DNA from: an uncultured Anaerolineales bacterium
GTDB lineage: Bacteria > Chloroflexota > Anaerolineae > Anaerolineales > UBA11858
Direction of reading: 5' to 3'
DNA length: 64,000 nt
NCBI GenBank assembly: GCA_964622645.1
Contig: CAZUSV010000005.1
Span: 1,122-65,121, forward strand
The stretch's first letter is position 1. Every line of letters begins with the position of its first letter. Both the position numbers and the translations under genes were made by a program. Shown in pieces: positions 26,411-48,085 of the stretch. A model generated the notes under the pieces. The model saw only the letters and a program-made list of their open reading frames with translations. It did not search any database and was not told the origin of the DNA.

Positions 26411-28294
26411 TCAAGGTAGGGTCAAATCCGCTAACAGCACCCAGCCGGTATACGAGCTGTCGATACCCTTGTATTCCACCAACACACATTCTCTATTGAG
26501 ATTATCCAATCTACGCTCAGCAGGCAATAATTGAACAACACCCGCCGCGGGAATGCTGCCAATAGCAGTATAACTCTCGTAACAATCGTTTCTAACCCAG
26601 ATCCGGCGTATTGCACGCATAGTCATAGGCGTAGGAGTAAGAGTAGGAGTGAAAGTAGGGGTAACAGTAAAGGTAGGAGTAGGTGTTAGGGTAAAAGTAG
26701 GAGTGGGTGTAAAAGTGGAGGTAGATGTAGGGGTCAAAGTTGGAGTAGGTGTCAAAGTAGTGGTTGACGTAGGAGTAAAGGTAAATGTGGGTGTTGGCGT
26801 GAGGCTCAACTGATAATTCTGAAACCGCCCCCAGCCCCAGATACCGATTATGATTATAATCAACGCGCCGATAACGCCCCCAATGGTCAAGAGACGGCTA
26901 CGGTTTGCTTCATACGGAGCCAATTTAGCTGACAGTGTATCTACTTCCGGATCCAGTGGATACAATGACTGGACAGTCCTCAATAATTCTCGCGCACGCG
27001 TTTTGTCGTTGGTAGCAAAGGCGGTATTGGCACGATCGAGCAACTCTTGTGCTTCTTCATTCTTTGTTTGTTCTTTATTCAACCTAGTTCTCACATGTGA
27101 CAACTGGCGGGAAATTTCTTCCCCACCCGGCCAAGCATTTTCCAGGGTGGATAATGTGCGAGCAGCGTCCTCGATAAAAGTAGACGCATCTTCTATGCGT
27201 GGGGTCCTTTGCGCATCACCAACTTTCCGTTCAACGCCGTACAGCCCATGCTCCACAGCCTGCCCTAAGGCCTGCCGCTCTGGAATGCTCATCTGCTCTA
27301 ATAAGGGGTGAGCACCATATTTAGCTCGTAAGCGATCCAACTCAGCCTTGGCTTCTTCCACAAGTTGCAGGGTAATAGGCCTGGTAAATAGTTTTTGGCC
27401 GATCTGTTCAAGCTTGGATTGCACATCCCGATACTCCGTCAATTTATCCTGGTAAAGGGGAACAGGGGCCGCACTGACCGCCACCTGCATTTTTTGAATG
27501 GCTTCATCAAGATTGCCTGTTTGAAAAGCCTGGATGCCTTCGTTATATTTGTTTTGCGCATCCATTAGCGCCTGGGTATTTTTCTCGAACTCCTGACCCT
27601 CTTGGAAGCGAGTGATCCCTTCAGCTCTCAAAACCTTTTTTGCTTCTTCGTACAGGGTCATTGCGCGCTCGTAGTCCATCACATTGACAGCCGATTGGGC
27701 TTTACCATACCATATGGCAGCTTCTGCTGGAAGAACGTGGGCAGGGATATTTCCAGTCTGCAAATATTCCTGAGCCTGCTGGAAGTGTTCTTCGGCACGT
27801 GGCCAATTGTGTTCAATCATGAGGACTTGCTCATACAAGCGGATCGCATCCGAATATTTTCCGGCGTAAAAGGCAGCCTCCGCTTGATTCATCAAGTTTT
27901 CCGCCTGGGGATCTCGGGCTGGGGGTGTGCTCCCGACACCCTGGGCTCCAGGAATGCCACCTGGCGCTGCCCCTTGTCCGGCACTGCCTGACCCACCAGG
28001 CGTTCCGGCTGGTGAGGCGGCTGCACTACCAACGCTGCCCGCCTGTCTAGATGGAGGTATAGATCCTGAAGGAGGTGTAGCGTTTACAAGATCGTTGATT
28101 TTTGTGCGTAGTTGTTTACGTAGTGTACGCAGACGATCTTGGTCTTCAAGATCCCACTGAGCAAAGATGCTCCTCATGATATTTTCTACTTCTTGCTCCA
28201 GATCTTCCAGTTTATCCAATACTGGAGCTGGAGACTGCATTTCCTGTGCTATCCTGGTTTCCAGGTCATCGAGGATGGGATTATTGGCACTCAT
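26411..28294 (-). CDS. TPR protein (paralog C) with single TM, T/P linker and extracellular SH3-like domain
   Basis: Begins MSANNPILDDLETRI and shares the TPR core. TM LLTIGGVIGALIIIIIGIWGWG. Ends VLVEY...YTGWVLLADL, an SH3b-like ending. Confidence 0.88.
   Translation of the reverse strand: MSANNPILDDLETRIAQEMQSPAPVLDKLEDLEQEVENIMRSIFAQWDLEDQDRLRTLRKQLRTKINDLVNATPPSGSIPPSRQAGSVGSAAASPAGTPGGSGSAGQGAAPGGIPGAQGVGSTPPARDPQAENLMNQAEAAFYAGKYSDAIRLYEQVLMIEHNWPRAEEHFQQAQEYLQTGNIPAHVLPAEAAIWYGKAQSAVNVMDYERAMTLYEEAKKVLRAEGITRFQEGQEFEKNTQALMDAQNKYNEGIQAFQTGNLDEAIQKMQVAVSAAPVPLYQDKLTEYRDVQSKLEQIGQKLFTRPITLQLVEEAKAELDRLRAKYGAHPLLEQMSIPERQALGQAVEHGLYGVERKVGDAQRTPRIEDASTFIEDAARTLSTLENAWPGGEEISRQLSHVRTRLNKEQTKNEEAQELLDRANTAFATNDKTRARELLRTVQSLYPLDPEVDTLSAKLAPYEANRSRLLTIGGVIGALIIIIIGIWGWGRFQNYQLSLTPTPTFTFTPTSTTTLTPTPTLTPTSTSTFTPTPTFTLTPTPTFTVTPTFTPTLTPTPMTMRAIRRIWVRNDCYESYTAIGSIPAAGVVQLLPAERRLDNLNRECVLVEYKGIDSSYTGWVLLADLTLP
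26624..26800 (-). repeat. Thr/Pro-rich low-complexity linker (TPTPTFT repeats)
   Basis: TPTPTFTFTPTSTTTLTPTPTLTPTSTSTFTPTPTFTLTPTPTFTVTPTFTPTLTPTP. Similar linkers occur at about 30420-30570 and 34740-34850. Confidence 0.85.
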
Positions 28295-28348: not shown

Positions 28349-29287
28349 TTATTCATGTGCAGAAAGGTCTTCCCACAGTTCTGACGCGCTGGCATATCTT
28401 CCATAAAGTGCTCCTGCCAAGGTATCCCGTATAGTGTCACTCAGGCGCTCGCGGTCCTCCGCTCGCCATTCTGCGGAGAGTTTAGCGCTGGCACGGTCAA
28501 TATCCTCCGGTTTCGTGGGACCTAAAGGCAGCGCGCCAGGCGCAGGGCGACCAACAAATATATAATGCAGAGTACGGGCTGCAAACTGCACCAGATCATT
28601 CTTTATATGATGTTCCGTCAATCCCTGGGGATGGTATTGAGCAACGTTCCAGTCGATCATCGATACATGCGCGATCTCATCATCCCAATAATAATGAATG
28701 ATCTTATGATCCCGGTATACAATACCCCGCTCGTGAGCGGTTTGCAAGATTTCACAAATCTGAGATACACACTTTAGCGCTTTATCAAGGGGGAAAAACC
28801 GACCTAATGTCCAATTTTCATCACATTTTCTGTAAAGATTATCGCTGCGGTCCTTATACTCCAATGCCAAGTAAGGCAACCAGCCTGCTGCAACCCTTGC
28901 ATCCAGGTCTTCTAGGAAATCAGGGGTTTCATCAATCGTAAAGCGCCGCACCTGTCCTGTTAAGTGGTGGGCCTGACCAGCGCGAATGTCGGAGGGGATT
29001 TCATCTGGATTTTCAAATAAAATGAAACCCAACTCAGAGAGTTTCATCACACCCCGGAGATCGTCCATCTTCTGCAAAACAATAGCCTCCTCCCGGAACA
29101 ATGGTGGGGCGTATTCAGGTTTATCTGAGCGCATAAATTTCACCGCAAAAGCACGACGATGGTTATTTGTCTGTTCGATGGTCCCGAAAAACACCCGCGC
29201 AGACGAACCGCGCACGGTCGGATCCCAGGTATCCAACGAATCTGTCAGGTAGATAGCTTGCCCTTGACCTAGATTTCCGTTTTGCAT
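28349..29287 (-). CDS. Divergent stand-alone kinase-fold protein (DWN in place of DFG)
   Basis: GSSARVF, FAVKFM, FREEA, VYRDHKIIHYYWD and MIDWNVA. Confidence 0.85.
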   Translation of the reverse strand: MQNGNLGQGQAIYLTDSLDTWDPTVRGSSARVFFGTIEQTNNHRRAFAVKFMRSDKPEYAPPLFREEAIVLQKMDDLRGVMKLSELGFILFENPDEIPSDIRAGQAHHLTGQVRRFTIDETPDFLEDLDARVAAGWLPYLALEYKDRSDNLYRKCDENWTLGRFFPLDKALKCVSQICEILQTAHERGIVYRDHKIIHYYWDDEIAHVSMIDWNVAQYHPQGLTEHHIKNDLVQFAARTLHYIFVGRPAPGALPLGPTKPEDIDRASAKLSAEWRAEDRERLSDTIRDTLAGALYGRYASASELWEDLSAHE

Positions 29288-29290
29288 CTT

Positions 29291-32200
29291 CTACTCCAAT
29301 ATTATTTCTAAACGACGATTGTATAAATGTGCTGAGCCATCCATCTCTATCCAAAAATCAACTTTCTTGGCTTCATCCATCACACTCTCCGGCCAGATAG
29401 AAGCAAAAACAGGAATTTGCTCCGCCCGATTTTCCCAATTGATCTTCTGCCAAATAATCATCCTGCCAACCCAGATAGGCATTAACGTAATATATTTGAC
29501 AGCATCACAGGTCGGAGCTGTTTCTGTAATATCCGATACAGAGTTTATCGTATCAATTCCAGGAATGATGGATCGCGTTTGCCATTGAGTAATCTCATCT
29601 TGTGTCAGAGCAAACTGCAGTCCCAGCTCCGCATTTCCCCGATTTGTCCACAAATTTACCATCAGATCAGGCTCGCGTTCTAGCACACAAAACTCCATCA
29701 TCAACCCACTGCTGTTATTCCATTTTGGAAGATGCCGTGCAACATCTATGGCAAGATGACATGATTCGATGCCTGATAAATAGGTATTCCAATGGGCATT
29801 GTAATCCTTATCAACATAGGGACATTCTTTCAAATAATCATCTGTCCAAGTAATATTTCGTGAAAGTAGATCAACGGAGATTATCTTAGATGTTAGAAAT
29901 GTTGCATCAAGTCGTCTCCACAAATCACTTGTAGCGTCTATAGATTTTCCGCAAATCGTGCTAAATAGTTGTCTTCCACCCTCGTATTGTTCGAAATGCC
30001 AATTCAAATAATTTCGTAGCGCACGGACTTGCGACTTAGTTATATCATTTTCGGGCGACAGATTACATAAAGCCAATGTGGCCCGCGTCCAAGAGAGATA
30101 TTTGACCAGATCCCTTTTTACTGTCTCGTTGTCGGATCCAAGATCTGGTAGTTGGAGAAAAGGATAATTCTCTTTAGATAATAGGGCTTCTATTCTTATC
30201 TTTGCCTCATCGACTTCGCCAATGCTTAATTGACTTAGGATAGCCAGCAGTTGCACATCCATCAAATGGGTTACTTTTGAAGAGCGCCAACCGCAGTTCT
30301 CTTGTAAAACTGCATAGTCTGTATCGTCAAGTTCACTGAAAGTATCCCTATATTCATCCCAATCTCCATCGTTAGCAAAACCTATATAGGTATTACAGTC
30401 TCTTAAAGAGGCTTGTGTGGGAGGTAAAGTGAGGGTGAGGGTTGGTGTGAACGTCGAAGTGGGGGAAAAGGTTGAAGTGGGAGTTGATGTAAGCGTGTGA
30501 GTAGCAGTGGGAGATGGCGTCAGCGTTGGAGTGGGGGATAGCGTCAGCGTGGAAGTTGGAGTATCTGTAGCAACAAACGAGAATTGATAAAATGGTTCAC
30601 CAGTTGTTGAACGAAATAGCACGATGCCAAATAATGCTATAATGAGTACACCCATGATCCACAATAAGATAGAAAATGATTTCTGTTTGGGATATTCACG
30701 AAGGGGATGATCTTCAGGGAGGTGCCCCAAAATCTTCAACTGATCCTTTGATTCCCCCCATTCTAATGACCGCTTCTCTGCATCGGTCAACCGGATTTCT
30801 AGTCGCCCTATATGGCGAACTAAATCTATAACTTTCTTTTTACCTGCAGGAATGATATATCGCCACCAAGCAAAGTAACTCCGGTAATCATGGTCAACAC
30901 GCCTTGCCATATCCGCCACACCGCTAACTTGATCCCAAAGTGTCTTAGCGTGTGGAGTCTCCCAGGCCAGCACCAGTGGCAGATCCTTGTTAACGGCAGA
31001 ATCTGGCTGGACACTCTCAATTTGCTCTCGAGCCTCCTGTGTCATCGACGCAAGCGATGAAAATGTACTCTTCCATCGCTTTGTCTTTGTAATATGTTTG
31101 ATATCCTGCCACAACCTTGCTGCTTTCCTCAATGGCTGGATGATGGGGCTGATTTCATCTGGGAGTGGTTGAGCATCTGACAACCAATTCGCCAATGGGT
31201 TACGCTCCAGTGCCGCGGCAAGACCACTTCCTCTCCAACGTCTGTCTAAGGTCTGGTGCAATCCCCCCAGAATAGCCCATTTGGCATGGGTTTCATTAAT
31301 CTTCTTGAGCCTTCCCAAGGTGTCAGACAGGCCATCCCGTGCAGGCCAGGTCTTCCAATCCTCCAGCACGCCTAACACGGTCAAAACTCGTAGATACTGC
31401 ATATCTCCTGGTGCAACGATAAAAGAAAGCAGCCTTTTTGTAGGCCCAAGTGGTTCCATCTCAGGATCTCTCATTGGTGGAATTTCTAACAAGGTAGCAT
31501 CTTTTTCTATGAAGGCCATCAAGATGTCTTGATAGGCTGGCCAACTGCTCAATACACCAGTGTTCAGATACTCTCTAGCGGCATCATAATCTCTGGCTTG
31601 CAGGTGTTCGTAAAACGCTTCCCAAGGTTTCTTATCAATTGGAAGTGGAGTGGGACCAGGTTTTGCCCCCAGCATGTACTCACTCAGCCAGGGGAACCAT
31701 TCGATAGCGTCAGGATGAGCATCAACAATATCACGGATGCCATTAAAATTACCTCTATCCAATACAGCAGATAGCTTGTTCAGAACCTCGATGCGTCCAT
31801 CCAACCACTGCGCAGTAGCAACATTCCAGCGAATATCTTCCCCTGTTCTTGACAAATCACCCACAAAATCTTTTATACCTCTTCCCCCCGGTCCTTTGAT
31901 ACAATTGTTCCACCATTGCGCTGCACGTTGGACCGCATGATAAAACAGAGTAGTCAGAAGCCACCGATCTGGATCATGCAGTGACCAGGTCTTCAAGGCA
32001 ACGCCCAAGCGCTTAAATTCAGCCTGCGACCAAGTCCCTGCGGCATTGCTAGCAGCAGTTTCAGCCGGTTCCAAAGCAGCCCTGAACCTTTCCCAATCTC
32101 CTGGGTATTCCTTCTCCAAGGTTCTTGAAATCAATACCTTCTCGGGATATTCAAATGAGAAACTTCGAGTGGGGACAGTTTTTTCATCAGCATCAAGAGA

Positions 32201-33595
32201 TACTTGCCTGGTTGGTGTCATTGACCAACCCGTTATCACCTGATCAAGCATAGCCATGACATGATCCGGTGCAGAAGTCAGATCTTCACGAATGCTGCGC
32301 AGCACACTCAATGGAGTGGGAGCTTCTGGATCACAGGCTGGAATTTGTGTCAGCAGACGCGCCCGAACCGGGGTCCACCAGGTGGGTCTTGGGTCATGAA
32401 AGGTGTTTATCCACAACTCCCAATATGCAGTCATCCAGTCATTTGCCAACCCTCTCTGGATTGCAGCGGTAAGGGGATCTCCACTTATTTTGGTGATATG
32501 GGCACCAGCTTCCTGGATAATGCCCGCCAGGGTTTCATAGGAGTTATCAGCAAGATCAGGCGAGATTTCCATTATACGCGCAAATGTACCCAGGTCACGA
32601 TTAAGCACCGCAGCTCGCAATACCCTCGTGAGGACTCCTTGAGCTAGATCAACCTGTAACACTTCCCCATAATCCATCAATTCGCTTTGCAATCGAAGTA
32701 GTTCTTTCAAGACATCTCGGTAAGGCCGATCGCTTTTGCAGAGATTCTTCACTCGGTCAAGTTTTTCTTTTAGCTTTCTACTCTCTACAACAACCAAGTT
32801 CTGGGCTCTGTCTTGAATGGTTTCTATTTGGCTTCGGTTGAACTGATTGCAGTCGCCAAAATGCAGGGACTGAAGCATCTCTGGGGCGACTTGCTGGATA
32901 AATGGACCAAACTTTTCGCAATATTTCCGGTAATCGTATTGGGTGGAAAAACGCCGGTCTGTGCTGATGCCATCTGGTCCCAGTGCTTTGGCATTGCCCC
33001 AATCGATGATCGTCAAGCGGCGATAGAATGGATCCCAGTAGATATGGTTGAGTTTGATGTCGTTCCAAAGCACACCATGAGATTTTCCCCATCGAAAACC
33101 GTGAATATAGTTGAGAAAACTGGCAATCCCATCCAACACCCCCAATGGCAACAAAAGCGGCAACTGCCCCTGCCGGCCAATTATGTTGAGATAGTCACGC
33201 TCTTGCTGCGATGAATAGTTCTCCAGATTCAGCCGCTCTTGCCGGGCGTTGAGCAGAGTTTCCAGATCAAAGCCCGCAGCGCGCTCGATGACAATGAAGG
33301 TATTGAGGCTATTTTCAGTTCCCGGTTGGCTGCGGTCAAGAAGCCTTACAGGGCTTATCTTGCAGTCCAACACATGCACATCCACCTGGATATGATCCAT
33401 TGCTTCTAGCACATCCCCCTCGAAATGAATCTGAGTAGCTTGCCGGGGCACAAACACGCGCTGCACCGGTCGCTTAACAACGGCTATCTCCCCAGCACCA
33501 TTTTTCGCCTCCCAGACCTCTCCATTATCTCCCTCGCCTAATTTGCTAAGGAGCTCCCATCTATATATATTTCCGTGTAACTCGCCCGATGTCAT
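29291..33595 (-). CDS. Giant divergent receptor-like kinase (1434 aa): kinase, long helical region, TM, T/P linker, Cys-containing ectodomain
   Basis: LGEGDNGEVW, AVVKRP, LWNDIKLNHIYWD and IIDWGNA. TM SILLWIMGVLIIALFGIVLF. Confidence 0.88.
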   Translation of the reverse strand: MTSGELHGNIYRWELLSKLGEGDNGEVWEAKNGAGEIAVVKRPVQRVFVPRQATQIHFEGDVLEAMDHIQVDVHVLDCKISPVRLLDRSQPGTENSLNTFIVIERAAGFDLETLLNARQERLNLENYSSQQERDYLNIIGRQGQLPLLLPLGVLDGIASFLNYIHGFRWGKSHGVLWNDIKLNHIYWDPFYRRLTIIDWGNAKALGPDGISTDRRFSTQYDYRKYCEKFGPFIQQVAPEMLQSLHFGDCNQFNRSQIETIQDRAQNLVVVESRKLKEKLDRVKNLCKSDRPYRDVLKELLRLQSELMDYGEVLQVDLAQGVLTRVLRAAVLNRDLGTFARIMEISPDLADNSYETLAGIIQEAGAHITKISGDPLTAAIQRGLANDWMTAYWELWINTFHDPRPTWWTPVRARLLTQIPACDPEAPTPLSVLRSIREDLTSAPDHVMAMLDQVITGWSMTPTRQVSLDADEKTVPTRSFSFEYPEKVLISRTLEKEYPGDWERFRAALEPAETAASNAAGTWSQAEFKRLGVALKTWSLHDPDRWLLTTLFYHAVQRAAQWWNNCIKGPGGRGIKDFVGDLSRTGEDIRWNVATAQWLDGRIEVLNKLSAVLDRGNFNGIRDIVDAHPDAIEWFPWLSEYMLGAKPGPTPLPIDKKPWEAFYEHLQARDYDAAREYLNTGVLSSWPAYQDILMAFIEKDATLLEIPPMRDPEMEPLGPTKRLLSFIVAPGDMQYLRVLTVLGVLEDWKTWPARDGLSDTLGRLKKINETHAKWAILGGLHQTLDRRWRGSGLAAALERNPLANWLSDAQPLPDEISPIIQPLRKAARLWQDIKHITKTKRWKSTFSSLASMTQEAREQIESVQPDSAVNKDLPLVLAWETPHAKTLWDQVSGVADMARRVDHDYRSYFAWWRYIIPAGKKKVIDLVRHIGRLEIRLTDAEKRSLEWGESKDQLKILGHLPEDHPLREYPKQKSFSILLWIMGVLIIALFGIVLFRSTTGEPFYQFSFVATDTPTSTLTLSPTPTLTPSPTATHTLTSTPTSTFSPTSTFTPTLTLTLPPTQASLRDCNTYIGFANDGDWDEYRDTFSELDDTDYAVLQENCGWRSSKVTHLMDVQLLAILSQLSIGEVDEAKIRIEALLSKENYPFLQLPDLGSDNETVKRDLVKYLSWTRATLALCNLSPENDITKSQVRALRNYLNWHFEQYEGGRQLFSTICGKSIDATSDLWRRLDATFLTSKIISVDLLSRNITWTDDYLKECPYVDKDYNAHWNTYLSGIESCHLAIDVARHLPKWNNSSGLMMEFCVLEREPDLMVNLWTNRGNAELGLQFALTQDEITQWQTRSIIPGIDTINSVSDITETAPTCDAVKYITLMPIWVGRMIIWQKINWENRAEQIPVFASIWPESVMDEAKKVDFWIEMDGSAHLYNRRLEIILE

Positions 33596-33628
33596 TTGTA
33601 GTTACCTTTTGAATACTAAACACAATGG

Positions 33629-36600
33629 TTATTCGGATGTGATACCCCTAAGAATGCTCAATCTAGAATTGAGCAAGTGAACATCATCATCTAATTCCAG
33701 CCAAAACTCCACACTGACTGAAGCGGATACTGAATGCTCTGGCCAGACAGATGCCCCAATCAAAGCATATTCCGTCGAATATAAATCACTGATTTGCCAG
33801 ATAAGCAATCGACCGACCCAAACCGGTTGCATAACCAGGTAATTTTCACAAGCAACGGAAAAGGAATTGAGATCAGTTAAGCTAGATTCTATACTTATCG
33901 GGGGAATACCTGGCATGCTAACGAACATCTGGGTACCGGCAATCCGCCCAGATTGCATTAAAAACTCAAGACCAAGTTCGGTGTTCTGACGGCTGGTCCA
34001 AAAAGCAAAAGAAGATATTTGAGATTTGTCTAGCAATTGGCACAATCTCATCTCCAAGGCACTGGTAGCATTCCAGGTAGGTAGCTGCAAAACAATCGCG
34101 TTGGGCACAGTGCAGGGCTGGGCTGTCCCAGTACCTCTCCAGCGAACGAAATCACTGCCATCTCGATAAGTGCAGACCTGTGTATTGGTAGACCATTCGT
34201 CTCGATATGCTAACAAGTCAAAGGCGGTACCAGTCACAACACCTGCATTGGTGCTAAGCTGTGATTGCAAGGTTGTCAGATCAGCGTTACACATCTGCCT
34301 ATATAGCATATCGCTCTCCAAGAATTGTGCTTCATGCCAATCGAGGTATTGGGTCAGCGTCTGATTTTGTAACCTGGTCATTTCAGTCGGCATACTGCAC
34401 AAAGCCAGTGTAGCCCGCATCCAGTTTATATATTGGATAACCTGAACGCTATTCTCTAAATCAGGTAGAGAAATTGTAGGGTAATTGACGGTCATCAAGT
34501 TCCGCAATTCAGTCGCGATCTCAAGAGACTGGTTTGATATGCCAGCTTGTTCGCTAAAGAGTGCCAGTAGATGAGCATCTATTAAAGTATGCAACTGTGT
34601 TGTCGTCCAGCGACAAGAAGCTCGCAAGGCATCATAGTGTACGCCTCGAAGTTTATCATGCAATTCTTGATAAGCATTCGAACTACCGATGCTAGCCAAG
34701 TTTACCAATTCGGTGCAATGTTCTAATGAATAGCTAGGTGTTGCAGTTAATCGAATTGATGTTGGTGAGGGAGTGGGAGATGGTGTAAACGTTTGTGTAG
34801 GCGCGGAAGTGGGAGAGTACGTCAGCGTTGAAGTAGCTGTTTCTGTAGCAGTAACTGGGTATATAAAAGGCAGTTCAGATACTGTTGTGCGAAAAAGCAC
34901 AAGGCCAAGCACTGCGATAATGAGTATATCCATGATCCAAAAGAAGATAGACCTCGACTTCTGTTTAGGGTACCCTTGAAGGGGATGGCCTACAGGGATA
35001 CGTCCTGAAGTCTGCAATTGATCTACATATTTCATCCATTCCGATGATCTCTTCTTCGCACCAGTCAGGCAAAGTTCTAGCCGACCAAGTAGTTGCAAGA
35101 ATGCTTTAACTTTCTTTTTACTTACTGGTAAGACATATCGCCACCAGACAAAGTAGTTCCAATAATCACTGTCAATGCGCGCTGCCATTTCCGCCAAACT
35201 ACTCACCTGCTCCCACAATCTCTTAGCATGTGGGGTCTCCCAGGCTAGCAACAGTGCTAAGTCATTTTTGTCAACGGCGTCTCGCCGGATCTTCTCAATT
35301 TGCTTTCTGGCTTCCTGTACATATGACCTAAGCGAGGAAAATGTACTCTTCCATCGCTTTGTCTTTGTAATATATTCAATTTCCTGCCACAACCTTGCTG
35401 CATTCCTTAATGGCTGGATGACAGGGCTGACTTCATCAGAGAGTGGTACAACATCTGATAACCAATTCTCTTTTGGTTCACGCTCTAGTGCATCAGCAAG
35501 ATCACTCTTCTTCCAGCGTTTGTTCAGTGTCTGGTATAGTCCCCCCAGAATAGCCCATTTGGGATGGGTTTCACTAACCATCTTGAGCTTTTCTAATGCT
35601 TTTGATAAACCATCCCGGGCAGGCCAGGTTTTCCAATTCTCCAACACGCCTAATACTTCTATGACTTGCAAGTACTGCGTATCCCCTGGCGTAACATCAA
35701 AAGCGTGTAGCCTTTTTGTGGGCCCAAGAGGTTCCACCTCAGCGTCACTCTTTGGTGGAACCTCTAGCAAGGTAGCATCTTTTTCTATGAATGTTTTCAA
35801 GATATCTTGATAGGCAGGCCAACCACTCAATGCGCCGATGTTCAGATACTCTCTTGCGGCATCGTAATCTCTGGCTTGCAGGTAATCGTAAAACGCTTCC
35901 CAGGGTTTCTTATCAATTGGAGGTGGAGTAGCACTAGGCCTTACGCCCGGCAGGTACTCACTCAACCATGGGAACCATTCGATAGCGTCAGGATGAGCAT
36001 CAACAATATCATGGATGCCATCAAAGTTACCTCTATCCAATACATCAGATAGCTTGTTCAGAACCTCCAAGCGTCCATCCAACCATTGCGCAGGCGCGAC
36101 ATTCCAGCGAATATCTATTCCTGTTTCCAATATATCACCCACAAAATCTTTTATACCCCTTCCCCCTGGTCCTTTGATACTATTATTCCACCATTGCGCT
36201 GCACGTTGGACTGCATAATAGAACAAGGTAGTCAGAAGCCGCCGATCCGGATCATGCAGTGACCATGTTTTCAAGGCCATACCCAAGCGTTCAAATTCCG
36301 CCAGTGACCAGGCTAAAGCTGCATTGCTAGCAGCAGTTTCAGCGGGTACCAGAGTGGCACGAAATCTCTCCCAATCATCCGGATATTCCTTCTCTAAGAT
36401 TCCCGAAATCAACGCCTTTTCTGGATATTCAAATGAAGACTTAGGAGTGGGAATAGTGTTTTCATCATGCTCAAGAGTAACTTGCCTGGTTGGTATAATC
36501 TTCCAACCCATTATCACCTGATCCAGCATTGCCGTGACACGATCCGGTTCAGAATCCAGGTTCTTACAAATGCTGCGCAGCACGCCCAATGGAGTGGGAG

Positions 36601-37876
36601 CTTCTGAAACATAGTCTAGAATTTGGGTCAGGAGGCGAGCCCGCACTGGGGACCACCAGGATGGGGTTGGGACATGAAAGCTGTTTTTCCACAACTCCCA
36701 ATATGCACTGATCCAGTCATTCGCCAACCCTCTCTGAATAGCGGTTGTCAGAGGATCACCGCTCATCTTGGGGATAATGGCATTGGCTTCCTGGATAATG
36801 CCTGCCAGGGTTTTATAAGATTCGTGAGCCAAATCAGGGGAGATCTCAAGTATCCGTATATAAGTATCCAGATCTCGATTGAGCAGCGCAGCTCGAAATA
36901 CCTTCAAGAGAATGTCTTGCTCGAGATCGACTTGCAGCACTTCCCCATAATCCATCAATTCGCTTTGTAATCGCAGCAGCTCTTTCAAGACATCCCGGTA
37001 TGGACGGTCGCTTATTTGCAGGTTTCTTACCCGGTCAAGTTTATTTCGTAGCCTAGTGCTCTCTACAGCAGATAGGTTCTGAGTTCTGCTTTGAATGATT
37101 GCCATCTGTCGTTGGTTGAACTGATCGCAGTCGCCAAATTGCAGGGACTGAACCATCTCCGGAGCTGCTTGCTGGATAAATAGGCCCAAGATGTCACAAT
37201 ACTGCTGGTGATCATTTTGAGTGGAAAAACGCTGGTCATTGCTGATACCATTTGGGTCCAGAGCTTTGGCGTTACCCCAATTGATGATCGTAAGGCGGCG
37301 ATGGAATGGATCCCAAAATATATTACCAATGTTGATGTTGTTCCAGAGCACACCATAGGATTTCCCCCATCGAAAACGATGAATGTAGTTGAGCAAGCTA
37401 GCGATCCCATCCAGCACCCCCAGTGGCAGCAAAAGCGGCAATCTCCCCTGCTGGGAAATCATGTTGAGATAGTCACGCTCTTGCGATGAATAGTTCTCCA
37501 GCTTCAGCCGTCCTTGCTGGGCGTTGAGCATTGCTTCCAGATCGAAGCCTGCAGCGCGCTCGATAACAATGAAGGTGTTGAGGCTATTTTCGGTTCCCGG
37601 TTGGCTGCGGTCGAGAAGTCTTACAGGCCTTATCTTGCAGTCCAAGACCTGCACATCCACCTGGACATGTGCCATTGCTTCCAGCACGTCCCCCTCGAAT
37701 TGAATTTGGACAAACTGCCTGGGAACATATATACGCTGTCTCGGGCGCTTGACCACCCCTATCTCACCAGTATCTCTTTTTACCAACCAGACTTCTCCAG
37801 CATCGCCCTCACTGACTTGTTTTTGCAGCTGCCAGCGGTGCTTTTGGCCAATGAGTTCTGAATGATAGGGACGCAT
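33629..37876 (-). CDS. Giant receptor-like pseudokinase (1415 aa), tandem paralog of 29291..33595
   Basis: Same architecture and long near-identical blocks, but the catalytic motifs read LWNNINIGNIFWD and IINWGNA. Confidence 0.88.
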   Translation of the reverse strand: MRPYHSELIGQKHRWQLQKQVSEGDAGEVWLVKRDTGEIGVVKRPRQRIYVPRQFVQIQFEGDVLEAMAHVQVDVQVLDCKIRPVRLLDRSQPGTENSLNTFIVIERAAGFDLEAMLNAQQGRLKLENYSSQERDYLNMISQQGRLPLLLPLGVLDGIASLLNYIHRFRWGKSYGVLWNNINIGNIFWDPFHRRLTIINWGNAKALDPNGISNDQRFSTQNDHQQYCDILGLFIQQAAPEMVQSLQFGDCDQFNQRQMAIIQSRTQNLSAVESTRLRNKLDRVRNLQISDRPYRDVLKELLRLQSELMDYGEVLQVDLEQDILLKVFRAALLNRDLDTYIRILEISPDLAHESYKTLAGIIQEANAIIPKMSGDPLTTAIQRGLANDWISAYWELWKNSFHVPTPSWWSPVRARLLTQILDYVSEAPTPLGVLRSICKNLDSEPDRVTAMLDQVIMGWKIIPTRQVTLEHDENTIPTPKSSFEYPEKALISGILEKEYPDDWERFRATLVPAETAASNAALAWSLAEFERLGMALKTWSLHDPDRRLLTTLFYYAVQRAAQWWNNSIKGPGGRGIKDFVGDILETGIDIRWNVAPAQWLDGRLEVLNKLSDVLDRGNFDGIHDIVDAHPDAIEWFPWLSEYLPGVRPSATPPPIDKKPWEAFYDYLQARDYDAAREYLNIGALSGWPAYQDILKTFIEKDATLLEVPPKSDAEVEPLGPTKRLHAFDVTPGDTQYLQVIEVLGVLENWKTWPARDGLSKALEKLKMVSETHPKWAILGGLYQTLNKRWKKSDLADALEREPKENWLSDVVPLSDEVSPVIQPLRNAARLWQEIEYITKTKRWKSTFSSLRSYVQEARKQIEKIRRDAVDKNDLALLLAWETPHAKRLWEQVSSLAEMAARIDSDYWNYFVWWRYVLPVSKKKVKAFLQLLGRLELCLTGAKKRSSEWMKYVDQLQTSGRIPVGHPLQGYPKQKSRSIFFWIMDILIIAVLGLVLFRTTVSELPFIYPVTATETATSTLTYSPTSAPTQTFTPSPTPSPTSIRLTATPSYSLEHCTELVNLASIGSSNAYQELHDKLRGVHYDALRASCRWTTTQLHTLIDAHLLALFSEQAGISNQSLEIATELRNLMTVNYPTISLPDLENSVQVIQYINWMRATLALCSMPTEMTRLQNQTLTQYLDWHEAQFLESDMLYRQMCNADLTTLQSQLSTNAGVVTGTAFDLLAYRDEWSTNTQVCTYRDGSDFVRWRGTGTAQPCTVPNAIVLQLPTWNATSALEMRLCQLLDKSQISSFAFWTSRQNTELGLEFLMQSGRIAGTQMFVSMPGIPPISIESSLTDLNSFSVACENYLVMQPVWVGRLLIWQISDLYSTEYALIGASVWPEHSVSASVSVEFWLELDDDVHLLNSRLSILRGITSE

Positions 37877-38048
37877 GGTAGATTTATCGTTTGGTTATTT
37901 GATCTCTACAGAATATTTGAATCCCATGCGGGTTACCATCAATTGAAACGATACCAATAATTCCGCGTCCCCAATTGGAAGATATAGCCCAAAAGTACTA
38001 CCATTATACATCATAATCTACTTTATTATCGAAATTGCAATGTTCTTC

Positions 38049-38879
38049 TTACGGAATATAAAAATCTCCGTAATACATATACACTCCTGCCAAAACAACC
38101 GCCCCCAACGCAGCCACTCCCAACCACCACGGCCAAGGGCGGATGCCTGGGATATCGTATTTGGTGGGATGTCCACCAGTTTCCAACACCCGGATGCGGT
38201 ATGCCCGGATGGCCCTGCTACCCCACTGGCGACGACCGAAAACCTGCACCCGGTTTCCAAGGCGTACACTGGTGGCACCTTCCTTTTGATATAAAACCAC
38301 GCTGACCGGAGTACCACTGAGTTCATCTTCTACCTGGAGATCTATCATTGGGGCCGTCTTTCTTCCGCGTAAGACGTACAGAATAGGCCCGAATATTCCG
38401 CCTAATAGAGGCACCAGCATTGGCAATAAGCAGAGTGAAAAACCAAAGAATAGCAAAACGATGAACAAAGTCAAAGCAGCCATGAAAGCAGCAGCCAATA
38501 TTCCGATGAAAATCAATACGATCGAGGTGACCACCATTGCCCGCGCTGGATCGAAGGGCAGGCGCGTCTCGCGCGGTGGGTCGGCGATACTCACTCGCCC
38601 CTCAGCCAAAACACGCCCGTGTAAAGACCAGCTTCTATTAGGCTTCTTACCGGTAGGAGGGGAAATGATTTGCCCTCCTACTGGGGGTTGATGTGGAAGA
38701 GCAGGTGGAGAGGCCTCCGGTTGGGTTGGAAATACAACCGGTGATTGCATTTCAGTTGGCGATGGCGCAGGAGAAATGGCCGTGGGAGGCGTCGCAGGGG
38801 TGGGTAGATCTGCCCCACAAACGGCGCAAAAATTAGCCACATCTCGATTCTCGGCACCACACTGAAGGCAATTTTTCAT
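38049..38879 (-). CDS. Zinc-ribbon membrane protein with an unannotated beta-domain interrupted by a TM segment
   Basis: CLQCGAENRDVANFCAVCG, a Pro-rich linker, a long hydrophobic segment and a C-terminal TM. Confidence 0.8.
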   Translation of the reverse strand: MKNCLQCGAENRDVANFCAVCGADLPTPATPPTAISPAPSPTEMQSPVVFPTQPEASPPALPHQPPVGGQIISPPTGKKPNRSWSLHGRVLAEGRVSIADPPRETRLPFDPARAMVVTSIVLIFIGILAAAFMAALTLFIVLLFFGFSLCLLPMLVPLLGGIFGPILYVLRGRKTAPMIDLQVEDELSGTPVSVVLYQKEGATSVRLGNRVQVFGRRQWGSRAIRAYRIRVLETGGHPTKYDIPGIRPWPWWLGVAALGAVVLAGVYMYYGDFYIP

Positions 38880-38903
38880 GGTAATTTCTCCATACGCAAA
38901 ACT

Positions 38904-40508
38904 CTACGGCATTCGTCGGAATCCCGTCTGTCGCAAATTGAGATATTGGTGATACATATCCCCAAAAAACCAGCCAATTGCTGCCACAAATGATGCCCCC
39001 ACCCATAGCCAGAATTGTAAACCAAAACCAAACGATAATTCATATAGCAGCCCTGTAGCAACCACAGCCATCCCACAATACCAAGTTAGTTCCGTTTTCC
39101 ATTCTTCCCATCCCGTCAGGCTTTTTATTCTTTCAAGCATCATCAACCAGATTTCAATGAATCCTCCGCTAAGCATTGCCCCCAGGAATAAGCCACTAAA
39201 ATGAGAAAAATCTCCTCCAGTTCTCAGGTTGATTGTAAGATTTCCAACCAATGCTAATACCACGTGAGTCACAGAGGCTACCCAGCGACGGGGGATTGCA
39301 GCATGTGCTAGAGGCGCCACCAAGGAAATCAGAGGCACATAGGTCCATATCAATGGGTACCTTTTGAGAGTTGGCGTCAGCCACCATAACCCCACAACGG
39401 TAATAATCACTATGACGCCTAAAGCCAGAGCCAATTGCTTGGACGAAAGCCCTGCCGCAGCTTGAATCAGCCGTGTCGTTGGCCGCGAAGTTTTGGGCGG
39501 TGACTGACCTCTTGCTACCATTGGAGAATGCGAAACCCCCATTTGTTGGGACTGAGAGGTGGCCATATGCGTTTTGGTAAGTTCATTCTTGAAAGTAGCC
39601 ACATCCGGCCAGCGTTTGGCGCGCTCATTTTCGAGGCCGCGCATCAAAATTCGCTCCCACTCAGGAGATACTGCTGGATTTAACGTTCGAATATTGGGGA
39701 AATGCCAAGGTGTGGAAGTCGGGTCGTGACCGGTGAGTAATTCGTAAATGACTACTGAAAGCGAATAGAGATCACTGCGAGGGTCGGTTTGTCCACTTTG
39801 AGCTTCTGGTGCTGCATATCCTTTTGTCCCAATGGCCTGGGTATCTTTCTTTTTGCCAGGCTTAAAAAAGCGTACAATCCCAAAGTCAATCAGTTTGATA
39901 TTCCCATTGGGGAGCAGCATAATATTTGCGGGTTTCAAATCACGGAAGATAACTGGCGGTGATTGGCGATGTATGAAACTAAGTGCATCACATAGCTGTT
40001 CCACCCAGGGGAGAATCTCTCCTTCGGTGAAGGGATGTCCACGTTGAGCCAGGGCTGTTTCTAACGTCTGGCCATGGATATACTCCATCACCAGGTATTG
40101 CCGGCCTCCTTCAGCAAACCAATCGAAAACTCTAGGCAGAGTCTTATGGTTGAATCCTGCTAATAAAGTAGCTTCTTGATGGAATGCCTGCACCGCCTGT
40201 AAGCGCTCCTGAGGATCGGTAATCATGCTCTCACTCATCTCTTTGACAGCACGCAACTGGCCAGGTAGACGCGTATCCGCTACCTGGTATATTGCCGACA
40301 TACCGCCCTCACCCACCTTTTTTATGATGGCATAGCGATTGTTGAGCACTGTATGGGGCAGCAAACGCCCTGTCAAACCTGGCGTTGGCGTGGAGGATTG
40401 GCCGAACGGCGGATTCGCAATCCCAGGCAATGTCTTCCCTGTCACCGGGCAGAATTTAGCCGTTCCCCGGTGTAGCTGGCTGCAATATGGGCAGGTGAAG
40501 GTGGTCAT
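38904..40508 (-). CDS. Ser/Thr kinase with N-terminal zinc-ribbon-like motif and multi-TM C-terminus
   Basis: CPYC...FCPVTG, GEGGMS, AVKEM, FRDLKPAN, DFGIVR and GTKGYAAPE, then about 6-7 TM helices. Confidence 0.93.
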   Translation of the reverse strand: MTTFTCPYCSQLHRGTAKFCPVTGKTLPGIANPPFGQSSTPTPGLTGRLLPHTVLNNRYAIIKKVGEGGMSAIYQVADTRLPGQLRAVKEMSESMITDPQERLQAVQAFHQEATLLAGFNHKTLPRVFDWFAEGGRQYLVMEYIHGQTLETALAQRGHPFTEGEILPWVEQLCDALSFIHRQSPPVIFRDLKPANIMLLPNGNIKLIDFGIVRFFKPGKKKDTQAIGTKGYAAPEAQSGQTDPRSDLYSLSVVIYELLTGHDPTSTPWHFPNIRTLNPAVSPEWERILMRGLENERAKRWPDVATFKNELTKTHMATSQSQQMGVSHSPMVARGQSPPKTSRPTTRLIQAAAGLSSKQLALALGVIVIITVVGLWWLTPTLKRYPLIWTYVPLISLVAPLAHAAIPRRWVASVTHVVLALVGNLTINLRTGGDFSHFSGLFLGAMLSGGFIEIWLMMLERIKSLTGWEEWKTELTWYCGMAVVATGLLYELSFGFGLQFWLWVGASFVAAIGWFFGDMYHQYLNLRQTGFRRMP

Positions 40509-40516
40509 ATTGGACT

Positions 40517-41416
40517 CTATTTCTTCTTGATTTGGAAAGATGTATCTGTCTCGTAGTTATAAGCAGTTTCCACCAATACCACGCCACCTTTGGCAGGCCC
40601 CCACACAGCAACTGCATCACCCAAGTTGATATTCCCCGTGATCTCTCCCAAGGCCTTCGCATCCACCAGTCGCCCGCTGCGATGATCTTCGATACGCAGA
40701 TCGCGTGCGGGCATATCGCTGCCCTGGATAAAGGGTAAAAATGCCAATCCTGGAGAAACAAGCAGTCCCAAAGCCGCGGCAGCAAACCCCTTTTTGAGTA
40801 AATCATCTTTCTTGACCATATAACGCTCGGAGATGTGCTGCACATACCCCTCTGCGGTGGGTTGCCGTTTCCACACCCGCCATCCTCCCCGAGGAGATTG
40901 GGAAGCCGGTCCCGCCGGTATGATGGGGGCTGGCTGTACGGGACCGGGAGCTGGAAGGTTGGAAATAGGTGCCACTCCCGGTAGATCAATCGTGAAAGTT
41001 GTCTGCCCAACAATAATTTGATCGCCTGGCGATACCAGGGTGGGAGCCTGAACACGCACCCCGTTGACAAATGTACCATTCGAACTACCCAGATCGGTAA
41101 GCAACCAATTCCCCCCGCTCTCTTCTAGGCGGGCATGCAGGCGGGAAACTTGCGTATCATTGGGCAGCACTACCTGGCATTGATCTTCATCGCGTCCGAT
41201 GATCGTAGAAGAAGCCAGGGATATCCTCTGCCCACCGGCCAGCACGATTTCACCAACAGCGGAGGAGGAGGGCATCAACATAGTCGGGTCAAGACGCTTT
41301 GGGCTAGAGCCCGCTAGTGCCGGGGGTGGGCTAACCGGCAGGCTGCTTCCGCACACCTTACAAAACTTGGAATTTGGCCTGCATTGAGCGCCACAATTAA
41401 TACAATTAATGGTCAT
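40517..41416 (-). CDS. Zinc ribbon, FHA and unannotated C-terminal domain protein
   Basis: CINCG...FCKVCG, then a canonical FHA (IIGRD...VSRLHA...DLGSSNGTFVNG). Confidence 0.9.
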   Translation of the reverse strand: MTINCINCGAQCRPNSKFCKVCGSSLPVSPPPALAGSSPKRLDPTMLMPSSSAVGEIVLAGGQRISLASSTIIGRDEDQCQVVLPNDTQVSRLHARLEESGGNWLLTDLGSSNGTFVNGVRVQAPTLVSPGDQIIVGQTTFTIDLPGVAPISNLPAPGPVQPAPIIPAGPASQSPRGGWRVWKRQPTAEGYVQHISERYMVKKDDLLKKGFAAAALGLLVSPGLAFLPFIQGSDMPARDLRIEDHRSGRLVDAKALGEITGNINLGDAVAVWGPAKGGVVLVETAYNYETDTSFQIKKK

Positions 41417-41419
41417 ATT

Positions 41420-43667: not shown

Positions 43668-43722
43668 AATTACCTCCTCATAAGCCGATCACTTTTCAAG
43701 ATTTAGATTCCAAGGGCAAAGT

Positions 43723-43992
43723 TTATCGCTTGCTCAGGGCAGCTCGTAAGGCCAGCAGCAGGGTAATGACCACACCAATCAGTAATCCCACCAGACGAGC
43801 TGAAGTTTCCTCCAGCAAAGTTGGGTCTTTCCACAGCGACCAGGTCACCAACATTCCTCCTGCCGCGGCAAAGATAGCTTTGGTTTTGCGAACGCTATAG
43901 TCGCCGCTGGAAAAAACAACATCTAACGCCAGGTAGACGGCTCCAAAGGCGAGCAGGCCAATTGCTAGGGCAGGGAGTAAGTCTGTCGTCAT
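43723..43992 (-). CDS. Small 3-TM membrane protein
   Basis: 89 aa, hydrophobic, co-oriented within the cluster. Confidence 0.65.
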   Translation of the reverse strand: MTTDLLPALAIGLLAFGAVYLALDVVFSSGDYSVRKTKAIFAAAGGMLVTWSLWKDPTLLEETSARLVGLLIGVVITLLLALRAALSKR

Positions 43993-44054
43993 TCTTTTTC
44001 TAAGTTTGGTAAAGTTTTAGACTCATCGTTTGCCAAGTAATGGAGTTGTTCTTT

Positions 44055-46723: not shown

Positions 46724-46751
46724 CCAAACCCCATTACTGTGAGCTAAAACC

Positions 46752-48017: not shown

Positions 48018-48085
48018 GCTTGAATCACCTACTTCCAAAATATACTTGAGGTTGATATTCACGCCTTTCCACCAGGAAGGTTGCA

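What the first reader, a model, noticed from the sequence alone, without database searches (positions are those of the whole stretch)
29291..37876. Tandem giant receptor kinase and pseudokinase pair with targeted loss of catalytic residues
Seen in sequence: two ~1420 aa paralogs have long near-identical cytoplasmic blocks but strongly diverged ectodomains that keep a similar Cys pattern. In the upstream copy the catalytic Asp (GAC to AAC), catalytic-loop Lys (AAA to AAC) and DFG-equivalent Asp (GAT to AAT) are each changed to Asn. The VVK lysine and the full ORF are intact. Inference: a selected pseudokinase acting as allosteric partner, decoy or inhibitor, analogous to eukaryotic kinase/pseudokinase receptor pairs.
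Basis: partly seen in the sequence, partly recalled or inferred. Interest (0 to 1): 0.75.

Follow-up and report, generated by a model that had tools for sequence, protein, structure and literature searches.

The report
Dead-kinase twin of bacterial receptor kinase
Two neighbouring giant membrane receptor genes of a marine Anaerolineae bacterium are paralogues, and one has lost all four catalytic residues of its kinase domain while otherwise staying intact, which makes it a likely bacterial pseudokinase receptor seen so far in this one genome only.

Summary
P0001 (33629-37876, minus strand) and P0002 (29291-33595, minus strand) are 59% identical. P0001 carries Asn at four, not three, catalytic positions: HRD-type Asp, catalytic-loop Lys, a family-specific His that replaces the usual Asn, and the DWG Asp. 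In 196 aligned relatives these positions are 98-100% conserved, and only P0001 has lost all four.

The domain is a true but atypical protein-kinase fold, with a DWG motif as in CK2. It belongs to an uncharacterised Anaerolineae family. That family usually occurs as a soluble fusion of two kinase domains. Here it is split into a receptor plus a 312-aa second kinase (28349-29287).

P0001 is not decaying. Its ORF is whole, dN/dS is about 0.27 in the kinase domain as in the middle region, and all eight ectodomain Cys are kept.

The pair has a mosaic history. Cytoplasmic parts share recent ancestry (dS about 0.64). Ectodomains are saturated at synonymous sites and are not resolved as sisters.

No other genome or contig examined has a dead/active pair, so conservation of the Asn residues cannot be tested. 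A non-catalytic partner role is plausible, and the heterodimer remains untested. Interest is moderate.

The parts
33629..37876 (-). P0001: 1415-aa receptor paralogue with a dead kinase-like domain (pseudokinase receptor)
   Evidence: ORF and translation; 59% identical to P0002
37091..37876 (-). P0001 N-terminal kinase-like domain (aa 1-262), cytoplasmic
   Evidence: N-kinase HMM match at 11-263 of the stop-to-stop frame; aligned with the family
37280..37339 (-). P0001 catalytic loop and DWG-equivalent. Asn180 (37337-37339), Asn182 (37331-37333), Asn185 (37322-37324) and Asn199 (37280-37282) replace Asp, Lys, His and Asp.
   Evidence: Codon alignment; family states D 194/196, K 192/196, H 195/196, D 195/196
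34892..34948 (-). P0001 single transmembrane helix (aa 977-995)
   Evidence: Only Kyte-Doolittle 19-residue peak above 1.6 (2.81)
33632..34741 (-). P0001 ectodomain (aa about 1046-1415) with 8 Cys, after a Pro/Thr-rich linker
   Evidence: Ectodomain HMM match; Cys positions; alignments
29291..33595 (-). P0002: 1434-aa receptor with the family's full catalytic motif set (presumed active kinase)
   Evidence: ORF and translation; WNDIKLNH...IIDWGN
32816..33595 (-). P0002 kinase-like domain (aa 1-260). Asp179 (33059-33061), Lys181 (33053-33055), His184 (33044-33046), Asp198 (33002-33004).
   Evidence: Pfam Pkinase E 1.6e-4, below cut-off; profile match to CK2alpha; AF2 model pLDDT 91.6; kinase fold Z 15-17.5
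30614..30670 (-). P0002 single transmembrane helix (aa 976-994)
   Evidence: Only Kyte-Doolittle peak above 1.6 (3.03)
29294..30400 (-). P0002 ectodomain (aa 1066-1434) with 8 Cys; fold unknown
   Evidence: Ectodomain HMM match; no PDB sequence relative; relatives only among about 1270-1480-aa receptor forms
28349..29287 (-). K3: 312-aa second kinase-like protein (YRDHKIIHYYW...IDWNVAQ). It is homologous to the C-terminal kinase domain of the fused relatives. Its ATG lies 3 nt after the P0002 stop, with GGAG 9 nt upstream.
   Evidence: Translation; junction sequence; phmmer matches to the C-terminal domains of 1000-aa relatives
38003..38032 (-). Best sigma-70-like promoter match in the region, upstream of P0001 (consensus match only)
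   Evidence: TCGATA-18-TATAAT, 10 of 12. 21 sites were found against 14.5 expected, so this is weak.

Best explanation
P0001 is a catalytically dead paralogue (pseudokinase) of the receptor kinase P0002. It is kept as a working membrane receptor and is not a decaying gene.

Both proteins share one layout: an N-terminal cytoplasmic kinase-fold domain, about 700 aa of helical cytoplasmic region, one TM helix, a Pro/Thr linker, and an 8-Cys ectodomain of unknown fold. They belong to an Anaerolineae family whose usual form is a soluble fusion of kinase 1, a helical region and kinase 2. In this genome kinase 2 is a separate 312-aa gene (K3) immediately after P0002.

I propose that P0002 and K3 form the catalytic signalling unit. 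P0001 has an anciently diverged ectodomain, which suggests a different ligand, and a cytoplasmic part still 72% identical to P0002. I propose that it engages the same cytoplasmic partners (K3, P0002 or both) without phosphorylating anything. It would thereby add, gate or damp a second extracellular input.

Shown: loss of the four catalytic residues, retention of fold and ORF, purifying selection, mosaic ancestry, and the fused or split relation with K3. Inferred: catalytic death, non-catalytic function, and the identity of the partners.
For: Asp, Lys, His and Asp are all Asn in P0001. The same positions are D 194/196, K 192/196, H 195/196 and D 195/196 in the family, and the beta3 Lys (191/196) and alphaC Glu (194/196) are kept by P0001.

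The residues are identified by a profile alignment to CK2alpha: WNDVKPEH with HRDVKPHN, and IDWGN with IDWGL (E 1.4e-6). A kinase fold is confirmed (pLDDT 91.6; Foldseek probability 1.00; Z 15-17.5 over about 200-225 residues).

Selection: dN/dS is 0.27 in the kinase domain and 0.26 in the middle region. P0001 alone departs at only 5 of 52 conserved kinase columns (G20S plus the four) and at 0 of 20 middle columns. All 8 ectodomain Cys are kept although synonymous sites there are saturated.

K3 link: all 80 loci kept from 190 genome-collection matches carry the family as a single copy, 73 as one fused frame of about 1000 aa with both kinases, the rest cut by contig ends or broken into adjacent frames. 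The receptor forms L090 and L103 have a K3-like gene directly downstream. In the window K3 starts 3 nt after the P0002 stop. In the fused model the two halves are joined by an unstructured stretch of lower confidence, about residues 643-675.

Cytoplasmic parts share a strongly supported stem of length 1.62 with short tips (0.20 and 0.14).
Against: No orthologue of P0001 exists in any collection searched, so long-term conservation of the Asn residues is not shown. The loss could be recent.

The P0001 kinase domain is somewhat faster than that of P0002: a median of 17 against 10 unique changes, and P0002 is nearer to 178 of 192 outgroups. This is in the direction of relaxation, though it is not significant and the outgroups are not independent.

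Pairwise dN/dS cannot assign constraint to one lineage. The roughly 0.34 estimate for P0001 assumes an equal split of dS.

No expression data exist. No binding evidence of any kind was obtained. The domain arrangement in the fused relative is not confidently predicted (pTM 0.58).

Everything rests on one metagenome-assembled genome of 88% completeness.
Confidence: 0.6

Rival explanations
1. Early non-functionalisation. After duplication or conversion, P0001 lost catalysis by chance because P0002 covers the function. The remaining signs of constraint only reflect too little time for decay.
For: The dead/active pair is found in this genome only. The P0001 kinase domain shows more unique changes than that of P0002 (17 against 10). 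Its tip branch is longer (0.20 against 0.14). Once one catalytic residue is lost, the others are free to drift, which would also give a cluster of losses.
Against: There is no stop or frameshift in 1415 codons, at a cytoplasmic dS of about 0.64. Kinase-domain dN/dS of 0.27 equals that of the middle region. A neutral P0001 lineage would push the pairwise value to roughly 0.5-0.6 (inference). The middle region of P0001 is, if anything, more conservative than that of P0002 (6 against 9 unique changes). The ectodomain has kept all 8 Cys and the family motifs through synonymous saturation. Losses outside the active site at conserved columns are limited to one (G20S).
Confidence: 0.17
2. P0001 is still an enzyme or a nucleotide-driven switch. 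It would bind ATP through the retained beta3 Lys and alphaC Glu and either transfer phosphate by a non-canonical route or use nucleotide binding as a conformational switch.
For: The Lys (VVK) and Glu are kept, and the Gly-rich loop is only changed at its first Gly (SEGDAGEV). Retention of nucleotide binding or weak activity by some eukaryotic pseudokinases is stated in the passages I read of bioRxiv 10.1101/2025.01.12.632604. HER3 autophosphorylation is in the reference list of PMC12599244.
Against: The catalytic base, the catalytic-loop Lys, the residue at the metal-ligand position and the metal-binding Asp are all gone together. No compensating acidic residue was noticed nearby in the alignment. 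This was judged by eye and not tested structurally, because no model of P0001 was made.
Confidence: 0.1
3. The dead copy is an artefact of assembly, binning or sequencing error, not a real gene of one organism.
For: The genome is a fragmented metagenome assembly (365 contigs, 87.85% complete, 3.56% contamination). Read depth in the runs examined is low, about 1-7.
Against: Both genes and K3 lie on one contig. Contigs of three runs cover the P0001 catalytic codons with zero differing letters, and a fourth run covers parts of the locus. P0003 is a stored protein identical to P0001 over about 1137 residues. Four independent single-base errors that all give Asn at the four catalytic codons are not credible. 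The runs belong to one study and may include the source sample, so this is not independent replication.
Confidence: 0.03

Closest known systems
Eukaryotic receptor kinase / pseudokinase pairs such as EGFR or HER2 with HER3 (recalled; HER3 papers seen only in a reference list; abstract of PMC13259870 in the listing)
   Same: Paralogous single-pass receptors with different ectodomains. One has a kinase domain that lacks the catalytic Asp (replaced by Asn in HER3, from recall) but keeps the fold and the beta3 Lys.
   Different: This case is bacterial, with the kinase at the N-terminus and the ectodomain at the C-terminus. Four catalytic residues are lost. Heterodimerisation and allosteric activation are not shown here. 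A third, separate kinase (K3) is part of the unit.
Two-kinase-domain proteins (JAK JH2-JH1; RSK/MSK N- and C-terminal kinases) (recalled; JAK, TYK2 and MSK1 chains appear among the fold matches)
   Same: The family's common form carries two kinase-fold domains in one chain. With P0001, the unit P0001 plus K3 would be a dead domain beside a live one, as in JAK.
   Different: In the family both domains keep their catalytic motifs, so the dead state is the exception. The domains are separated by about 400 aa of helices, and here they lie on separate polypeptides.
Bacterial Ser/Thr pseudokinase families ActPs1-3, GLW, CP1, DYD and DLHK (PMC12599244: outline, sections 10 and 14, term passages; bioRxiv 10.1101/2025.01.12.632604: term passages)
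   Same: Bacterial Hanks-type fold with lost HRD-Asp and DFG-Asp; function unknown.
   Different: Those are conserved families. According to the passage read, ActPs1-3, DLHK and GLW all lack the beta3 Lys, which P0001 keeps. P0001 is a lone dead member of an otherwise motif-complete family. That family scores below Pfam's Pkinase cut-off, so it may lie outside that atlas, which was built on PF00069 homologues. Neither paper mentions Anaerolineae or tandem pairs in the text searched, and the supplements could not be opened.
Casein kinase 2 alpha
   Same: Best sequence-profile match in the PDB. It shares the DWG variant of DFG and the D-x-K catalytic loop.
   Different: The match covers only about 37 plus 60 residues at E about 1e-6. 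The family has His where CK2 has the catalytic-loop Asn. Structure searches do not single out CK2 (rank 42, Z 15.1).
PknB-type bacterial receptor Ser/Thr kinases (PknB 1mru, YabT 6g4j among fold matches)
   Same: Cytoplasmic N-terminal Hanks-type kinase, single TM, extracellular sensor domain.
   Different: There are no PASTA or other known sensor domains. The ectodomain is an unassigned 8-Cys domain. There is a very long helical cytoplasmic region. The catalytic-loop Asn is replaced by His, and the unit is accompanied by a second kinase.

Membership tests
Eukaryotic-like (Hanks-type) protein kinase fold | Bilobal kinase fold | tested here: met
   P0002 aa 1-340 model has pLDDT 91.6. Foldseek hits to kinases have probability 1.00. 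VIA Z is 15-17.5, rmsd about 3-3.7 A, over 200-225 residues. P0001 itself was not modelled; it is 72% identical over this part.
Eukaryotic-like (Hanks-type) protein kinase fold | Pfam PF00069 at the gathering score | tested here: not met
   P0002 scores 21.6 bits against a cut-off of 31.7. P0001 has no hit at E up to 1.
Catalytically competent protein kinase | beta3 Lys and alphaC Glu | tested here: met
   Both copies keep them. In the family K is 191/196 and E is 194/196.
Catalytically competent protein kinase | HRD-type catalytic Asp, catalytic-loop Lys and DFG-type Asp | tested here: not met
   This row is for P0001, where all three are Asn. P0002 and K3 keep them.
Catalytically competent protein kinase | Catalytic-loop Asn (metal ligand, D+5) | tested here: not met
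   The whole family has His at D+5 (195/196). P0001 has Asn there, but in a loop that lacks the Asp and Lys. Activity of the His-type loop is untested in any member.
Pseudokinase (sequence definition: at least one of beta3 Lys, HRD Asp, DFG Asp missing; definition as in the passage of bioRxiv 10.1101/2025.01.12.632604) | Loss of at least one catalytic-triad residue in a kinase fold | tested here: met
   P0001 lacks 2 of 3.
Pseudokinase (functional sense) | No phosphotransfer but a retained biological role | not testable with these tools
   This needs enzyme assays and genetics. Only indirect support exists, from dN/dS of 0.27.
ActPs1, ActPs2, ActPs3, DLHK and GLW bacterial pseudokinase families | Family-wide loss of the beta3 Lys | tested here: not met
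   P0001 keeps the Lys (GVVKRP). The feature is taken from the passage read. No models of these families were available to score.
Anaerolineae two-kinase family (unnamed; JGI label 'serine/threonine protein kinase') | N-terminal kinase with WND[VI]KxxH...IDWGN, a homologous helical middle region, and a second kinase (YRDHKxLHYYW...DWNVAK) in cis or encoded next door | tested here: met
   P0002 and K3 meet it fully. P0001 matches the N-kinase, middle and ectodomain HMMs (304, 645 and 332 bits) but has the motif changed to WNNINIGN...INWGN.
HER3/EGFR-like allosteric receptor pair | Physical heterodimer in which the dead kinase activates the live one | not testable with these tools
   This needs binding and activity assays. 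No computational evidence either way was obtained.

The most novel reading that the evidence does not exclude
P0001, P0002 and K3 form a three-part bacterial receptor. Two sensors with anciently different ectodomains share a cytoplasmic module that stays alike through gene conversion. One sensor is a dedicated pseudokinase that allosterically controls the live kinases. This would be a prokaryotic, independently evolved counterpart of HER3/EGFR- or JAK-type regulation, and it would be the first kinase/pseudokinase receptor pair described in bacteria.
Probability: 0.2. Interest if true: 0.7.

Novelty: new variant of a known kind. Interest (0 to 1): 0.45.

Why it matters
Bacterial pseudokinases are catalogued but almost none has a known role. 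This locus offers a clean natural experiment, with a live receptor, a dead twin and the family's second kinase all in one probable operon. A few assays could show whether bacteria use dead kinases as allosteric or scaffolding partners in the way animals do. The work also defines an uncharacterised Anaerolineae kinase family with three unusual traits: a His in place of the catalytic-loop Asn, a DWG motif, and fused, split and receptor forms. Finally, it gives an example of domain-wise mosaic evolution in paralogous receptors, where the cytoplasmic parts evolve in concert and the ectodomains do not.

Tried and rejected
1. Complex prediction of the P0002 kinase domain (1-340) with the P0001 kinase domain (1-341), each with a 50-row alignment, gave no verdict (score 0.01, mark 0.32). 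It is not evidence either way.

2. The protein Atlas look-up of the ectodomain failed twice because the service did not hold the sequence.

3. A word-based search for ectodomain relatives among proteins of 788-2510 aa found only P0002 itself. Relatives were later found among the receptor-type hits of the representative search.

4. An ectodomain profile of 4 sequences against PDB sequences gave nothing (best E 0.54).

5. The fused-relative model gave confident domains but pTM 0.58. No coordinates or PAE were available to me, so I draw no inter-domain geometry from it.

6. Sequencing runs: no RNA holder is listed. The four DNA holders come from one study, so there is nothing on expression.

7. 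NCBIfam and PADLOC gave no specific family for P0001 or P0002. I therefore dropped a defence-system reading, despite a TIR-domain protein nearby.

8. Earlier findings of this scan: nothing by place or by sequence.

9. Same-genus synteny test: the 290-aa neighbour has no match in 13 same-genus genomes (80-97% complete). P0002 has no orthologue there either; 1 of the 13 gave only a Pro/Thr-linker match. No empty-site comparison was therefore possible.

10. I considered rapid diversifying selection of the ectodomain after a recent duplication. I rejected it because synonymous sites at identical residues are also randomised there (40/99 same codon against 0.36 expected).

11. The relative-rate contrast between kinase and middle region goes the expected way but is not significant on the counts available.


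Full report
**Observation**

The region holds two long minus-strand ORFs. P0001 lies at 33629-37876 (1415 aa, first in transcription) and P0002 at 29291-33595 (1434 aa). They align end to end with 850/1434 identical residues. Identity by part is 0.72 in the N-terminal kinase-like part, 0.72 in the long middle region, 0.50 in the TM segment, 0.42 in the Pro/Thr linker and 0.30 in the C-terminal domain.

There is a fourth in the same loop, CAT>AAT.
- The motif is WNDIKLNH...IIDWGN in P0002 and WNNINIGN...IINWGN in P0001.
- The beta3 Lys and alphaC Glu are kept in both copies.
- Each protein has one hydrophobic TM peak near residue 976. Each has exactly eight Cys after it, and all eight align.
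- 'Near-identical' is too strong at DNA level: the longest identical run is 42 nt.
- Contigs from three runs of one study carry the P0001 catalytic codons without any difference. A stored truncated copy (P0003) agrees. An assembly slip is therefore unlikely, although this is not independent replication.

**What the domain is**

Pfam sees P0002 only below threshold (Pkinase 21.6 bits against 31.7) and does not see P0001 at all.

A 50-sequence profile finds CK2alpha as the best PDB sequence match (E 1.4e-6). It aligns GEGDAGEV with GRGKYSEV, AILK with VVVK, WNDVKPEH with HRDVKPHN and IDWGN with IDWGL. The changed residues are therefore:
- the catalytic Asp;
- the catalytic-loop Lys;
- the position of the metal-binding Asn, which is His in this family;
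- the metal-binding Asp of a DWG motif.

An AlphaFold2 model of P0002 aa 1-340 is confident (pLDDT 91.6). It matches protein kinases with Foldseek probability 1.00. VIA gives Z 15-17.5, including bacterial YabT and PknB.

**The family**

An exhaustive HMMER search of 1.84 billion representatives gave 139 hits at E up to 1e-3. A scan of species-representative genomes gave 190 relatives. All 80 that were kept bear Chloroflexota, Chloroflexia or Anaerolineae names.

In 196 aligned members the four positions are D 194, K 192, H 195 and D 195. Only P0001 (with its copy P0003) has lost all four. One distant member, P0146, has Asn at the catalytic Asp only. Three members (P0068, P0126, P0135) have Gln for the Lys.

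Three architectures occur.
- Fused soluble form. All 80 kept genome loci hold the family as a single copy with no ectodomain. 73 of them are one fused frame of about 980-1076 aa: kinase 1, helical region, kinase 2. The other seven are cut by a contig end, broken into overlapping frames, or are the split form below (L086).
- Split soluble form. Kinase 1 plus a long helical region (about 930-946 aa) is followed by a separate kinase-2 gene (L086, L120-L122; L008 partly).
- Receptor form. Proteins of about 1270-1480 aa carry a TM helix and the Cys-containing ectodomain. A kinase-2 gene lies directly downstream in L090 and L103.

The window has the receptor form. The 312-aa ORF at 28349-29287 (K3) is homologous to kinase 2 and keeps its motifs (YRDHKIIHYYW, IDWNVAQ). 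It starts 3 nt after the P0002 stop, with GGAG 9 nt upstream.

In a model of a fused relative (pLDDT 90.2, pTM 0.58) the two halves are joined by an unstructured stretch of lower confidence, about residues 643-675. The split forms are cut at the corresponding point. By the fusion (Rosetta-stone) argument, which is an inference, kinase 1 and kinase 2 work together.

**Is the dead/active pair found elsewhere?**

It was not found in anything I could search.
- Among 13 same-genus genomes (80-97% complete), 12 gave no match to P0002 and one gave only a Pro/Thr-linker match.
- L091 has 1068 bp and L103 has 9.9 kb upstream of their receptor genes. Neither stretch holds a second receptor.
- L090 has only 83 bp upstream, so it is uninformative.
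- The genome scan used a pattern that requires the Asp, so a lone dead copy would have escaped it.

**Selection**

Pairwise Nei-Gojobori values are dS 0.64, dN 0.17 and ratio 0.27 for the kinase domain. For the middle region they are dS 0.65, dN 0.17 and ratio 0.26.

At kinase columns at least 80% conserved in 194 relatives (52 columns), both copies keep 38. P0001 alone departs at 5 (G20S and the four catalytic residues). P0002 alone departs at 3 (A24N, V30A, Q224K). Neither copy departs alone at any of the 20 conserved middle-region columns.

The chance that 5 departures among 52 columns include the four catalytic ones is 1.8e-5. The loss is thus confined to the active site and is not general decay.

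The kinase domain of P0001 is somewhat faster than that of P0002. The median is 17 against 10 unique changes, and P0002 is nearer to 178 of 192 outgroups. In the middle region the order reverses: 6 against 9 unique changes, and P0001 is nearer to 143 of 186 outgroups. The outgroups are related to one another and the counts are small, so I treat this as a tendency only.

Splitting dN by these counts, and dS equally, gives roughly 0.34 for P0001 and 0.20 for P0002 in the kinase domain. This is an inference.

**History**

The two parts of the genes have different ages.
- At residues identical in both copies, the same codon is used in 420/577 cases in codons 51-850. In the ectodomain it is used in 40/99 cases, against a random expectation of 0.36 (Fisher 9e-10).
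- Four-fold sites agree in 122/194 cases in the cytoplasmic part and in 4/20 in the ectodomain.
- In trees with 12 other receptor-type proteins, the cytoplasmic parts are sisters (100/100) on a stem of 1.62 with tips of 0.20 and 0.14. The ectodomains have tips of 1.14 and 1.13, and their sisterhood is unresolved (quick tree, because the careful one did not finish).
- The first 50 codons are also old-looking (dS 2.2).
- dS varies from 0.20 to 1.15 between 50-codon windows of the cytoplasmic part.

Two readings fit. Old paralogues may have had their cytoplasmic parts homogenised by patchy gene conversion. Alternatively, a recombination may have joined a duplicated cytoplasmic module to an older ectodomain. 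Rapid ectodomain divergence after a recent whole-gene duplication does not fit.

**Mechanism proposed**

P0002 with K3 is the catalytic unit. P0001 is a second sensor with a different ectodomain and a cytoplasmic part that still resembles P0002 closely. It can therefore meet the same partners but cannot phosphorylate. Whether it activates, scaffolds, titrates or inhibits cannot be told from sequence.

The best promoter-like site lies upstream of P0001. The gaps between the genes are 33 nt and 3 nt, with no convincing terminator between them. This fits one operon, but it rests on consensus matching only.

**Comparison with what is known**

By the sequence definition P0001 is a pseudokinase. It resembles the HER3 type in keeping the Lys and replacing the catalytic Asp by Asn (recalled).

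It is not one of the bacterial pseudokinase families that lack the beta3 Lys throughout (ActPs1-3, DLHK, GLW). This rests on passages of bioRxiv 10.1101/2025.01.12.632604 and on sections 10 and 14 of PMC12599244.

Three literature searches and term look-ups in these two papers found no mention of Anaerolineae or of tandem kinase/pseudokinase receptors in bacteria (67, 72). Supplementary tables were closed, so the family may be classified there.

**Verdict**

The feature is real and richer than first described. The pseudokinase call is sound, and maintenance by selection is likely. The partner mechanism is open. The case is a singleton in one metagenome-assembled genome, which limits both the evidence and the interest.

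Noticed in passing
window 17320-18717 (-) and 26411-28294 (-): Two paralogous proteins share the N-terminus MSANN.ILDDLE... and TPR repeats (Pfam TPR_2 E 5e-12 for the longer one). The longer one adds a TM helix, a Pro/Thr linker like that of P0001 and P0002, and a small C-terminal domain. The linker explains the weak low-complexity hits L003-L006 and L009.
   Followed up: partly
window 20867-22576 (-): A 569-aa protein with a C-terminal TIR domain (PF13676, E 1.5e-14) sits inside the kinase-rich cluster. Only weak PADLOC hits were found (PDC-S66, bSEFIR).
   Followed up: partly
window 22606-24585 (-): A 659-aa protein has an N-terminal kinase domain (Pkinase E 1.4e-9; weak LanL and MkoA kinase similarity) followed by many hydrophobic segments. 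It is a polytopic membrane kinase of unknown role.
   Followed up: partly
window 38049-48089 (-): A run of signalling genes lies here: a zinc-ribbon membrane protein, a canonical Ser/Thr kinase (Pkinase E 2e-42), a zinc-ribbon plus FHA protein, and a NERD plus FHA protein. Three tandem paralogues at 44055-48089 look by eye like secreted VWA-type domains with C-terminal double zinc ribbons; this was not tested. Tandem duplication is common in this region.
   Followed up: partly
window 25532-26404 (-) and 24537-25535 (-): Two ORFs (290 and 332 aa) downstream of the TPR gene have no Pfam, NCBIfam or PADLOC family. The 290-aa one has no match in 13 same-genus genomes. The whole neighbourhood looks like accessory DNA of this species.
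   Followed up: partly
proteins P0146, P0068, P0126, P0135 (family members): Sporadic single losses occur elsewhere in the family. P0146 has Asn for the catalytic Asp (YNNIKLEH). P0068, P0126 and P0135 have Gln for the catalytic-loop Lys. Their genomic context is unknown.
   Followed up: no
loci L044, L053, L070, L087, L088: Some fused-type genes appear as two or more overlapping frames. These may be frameshifts, assembly errors or genuine fissions near the inter-kinase linker.
   Followed up: no
window 6001-10000: GC content rises to 0.56-0.58 against about 0.45-0.50 elsewhere in the window.
   Followed up: no
window 18733-20400 (-): A 555-aa protein has a canonical-looking kinase N-terminus. 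Its C-terminal half resembles, from recall and by eye only, a formylglycine-generating-enzyme-type domain.
   Followed up: no
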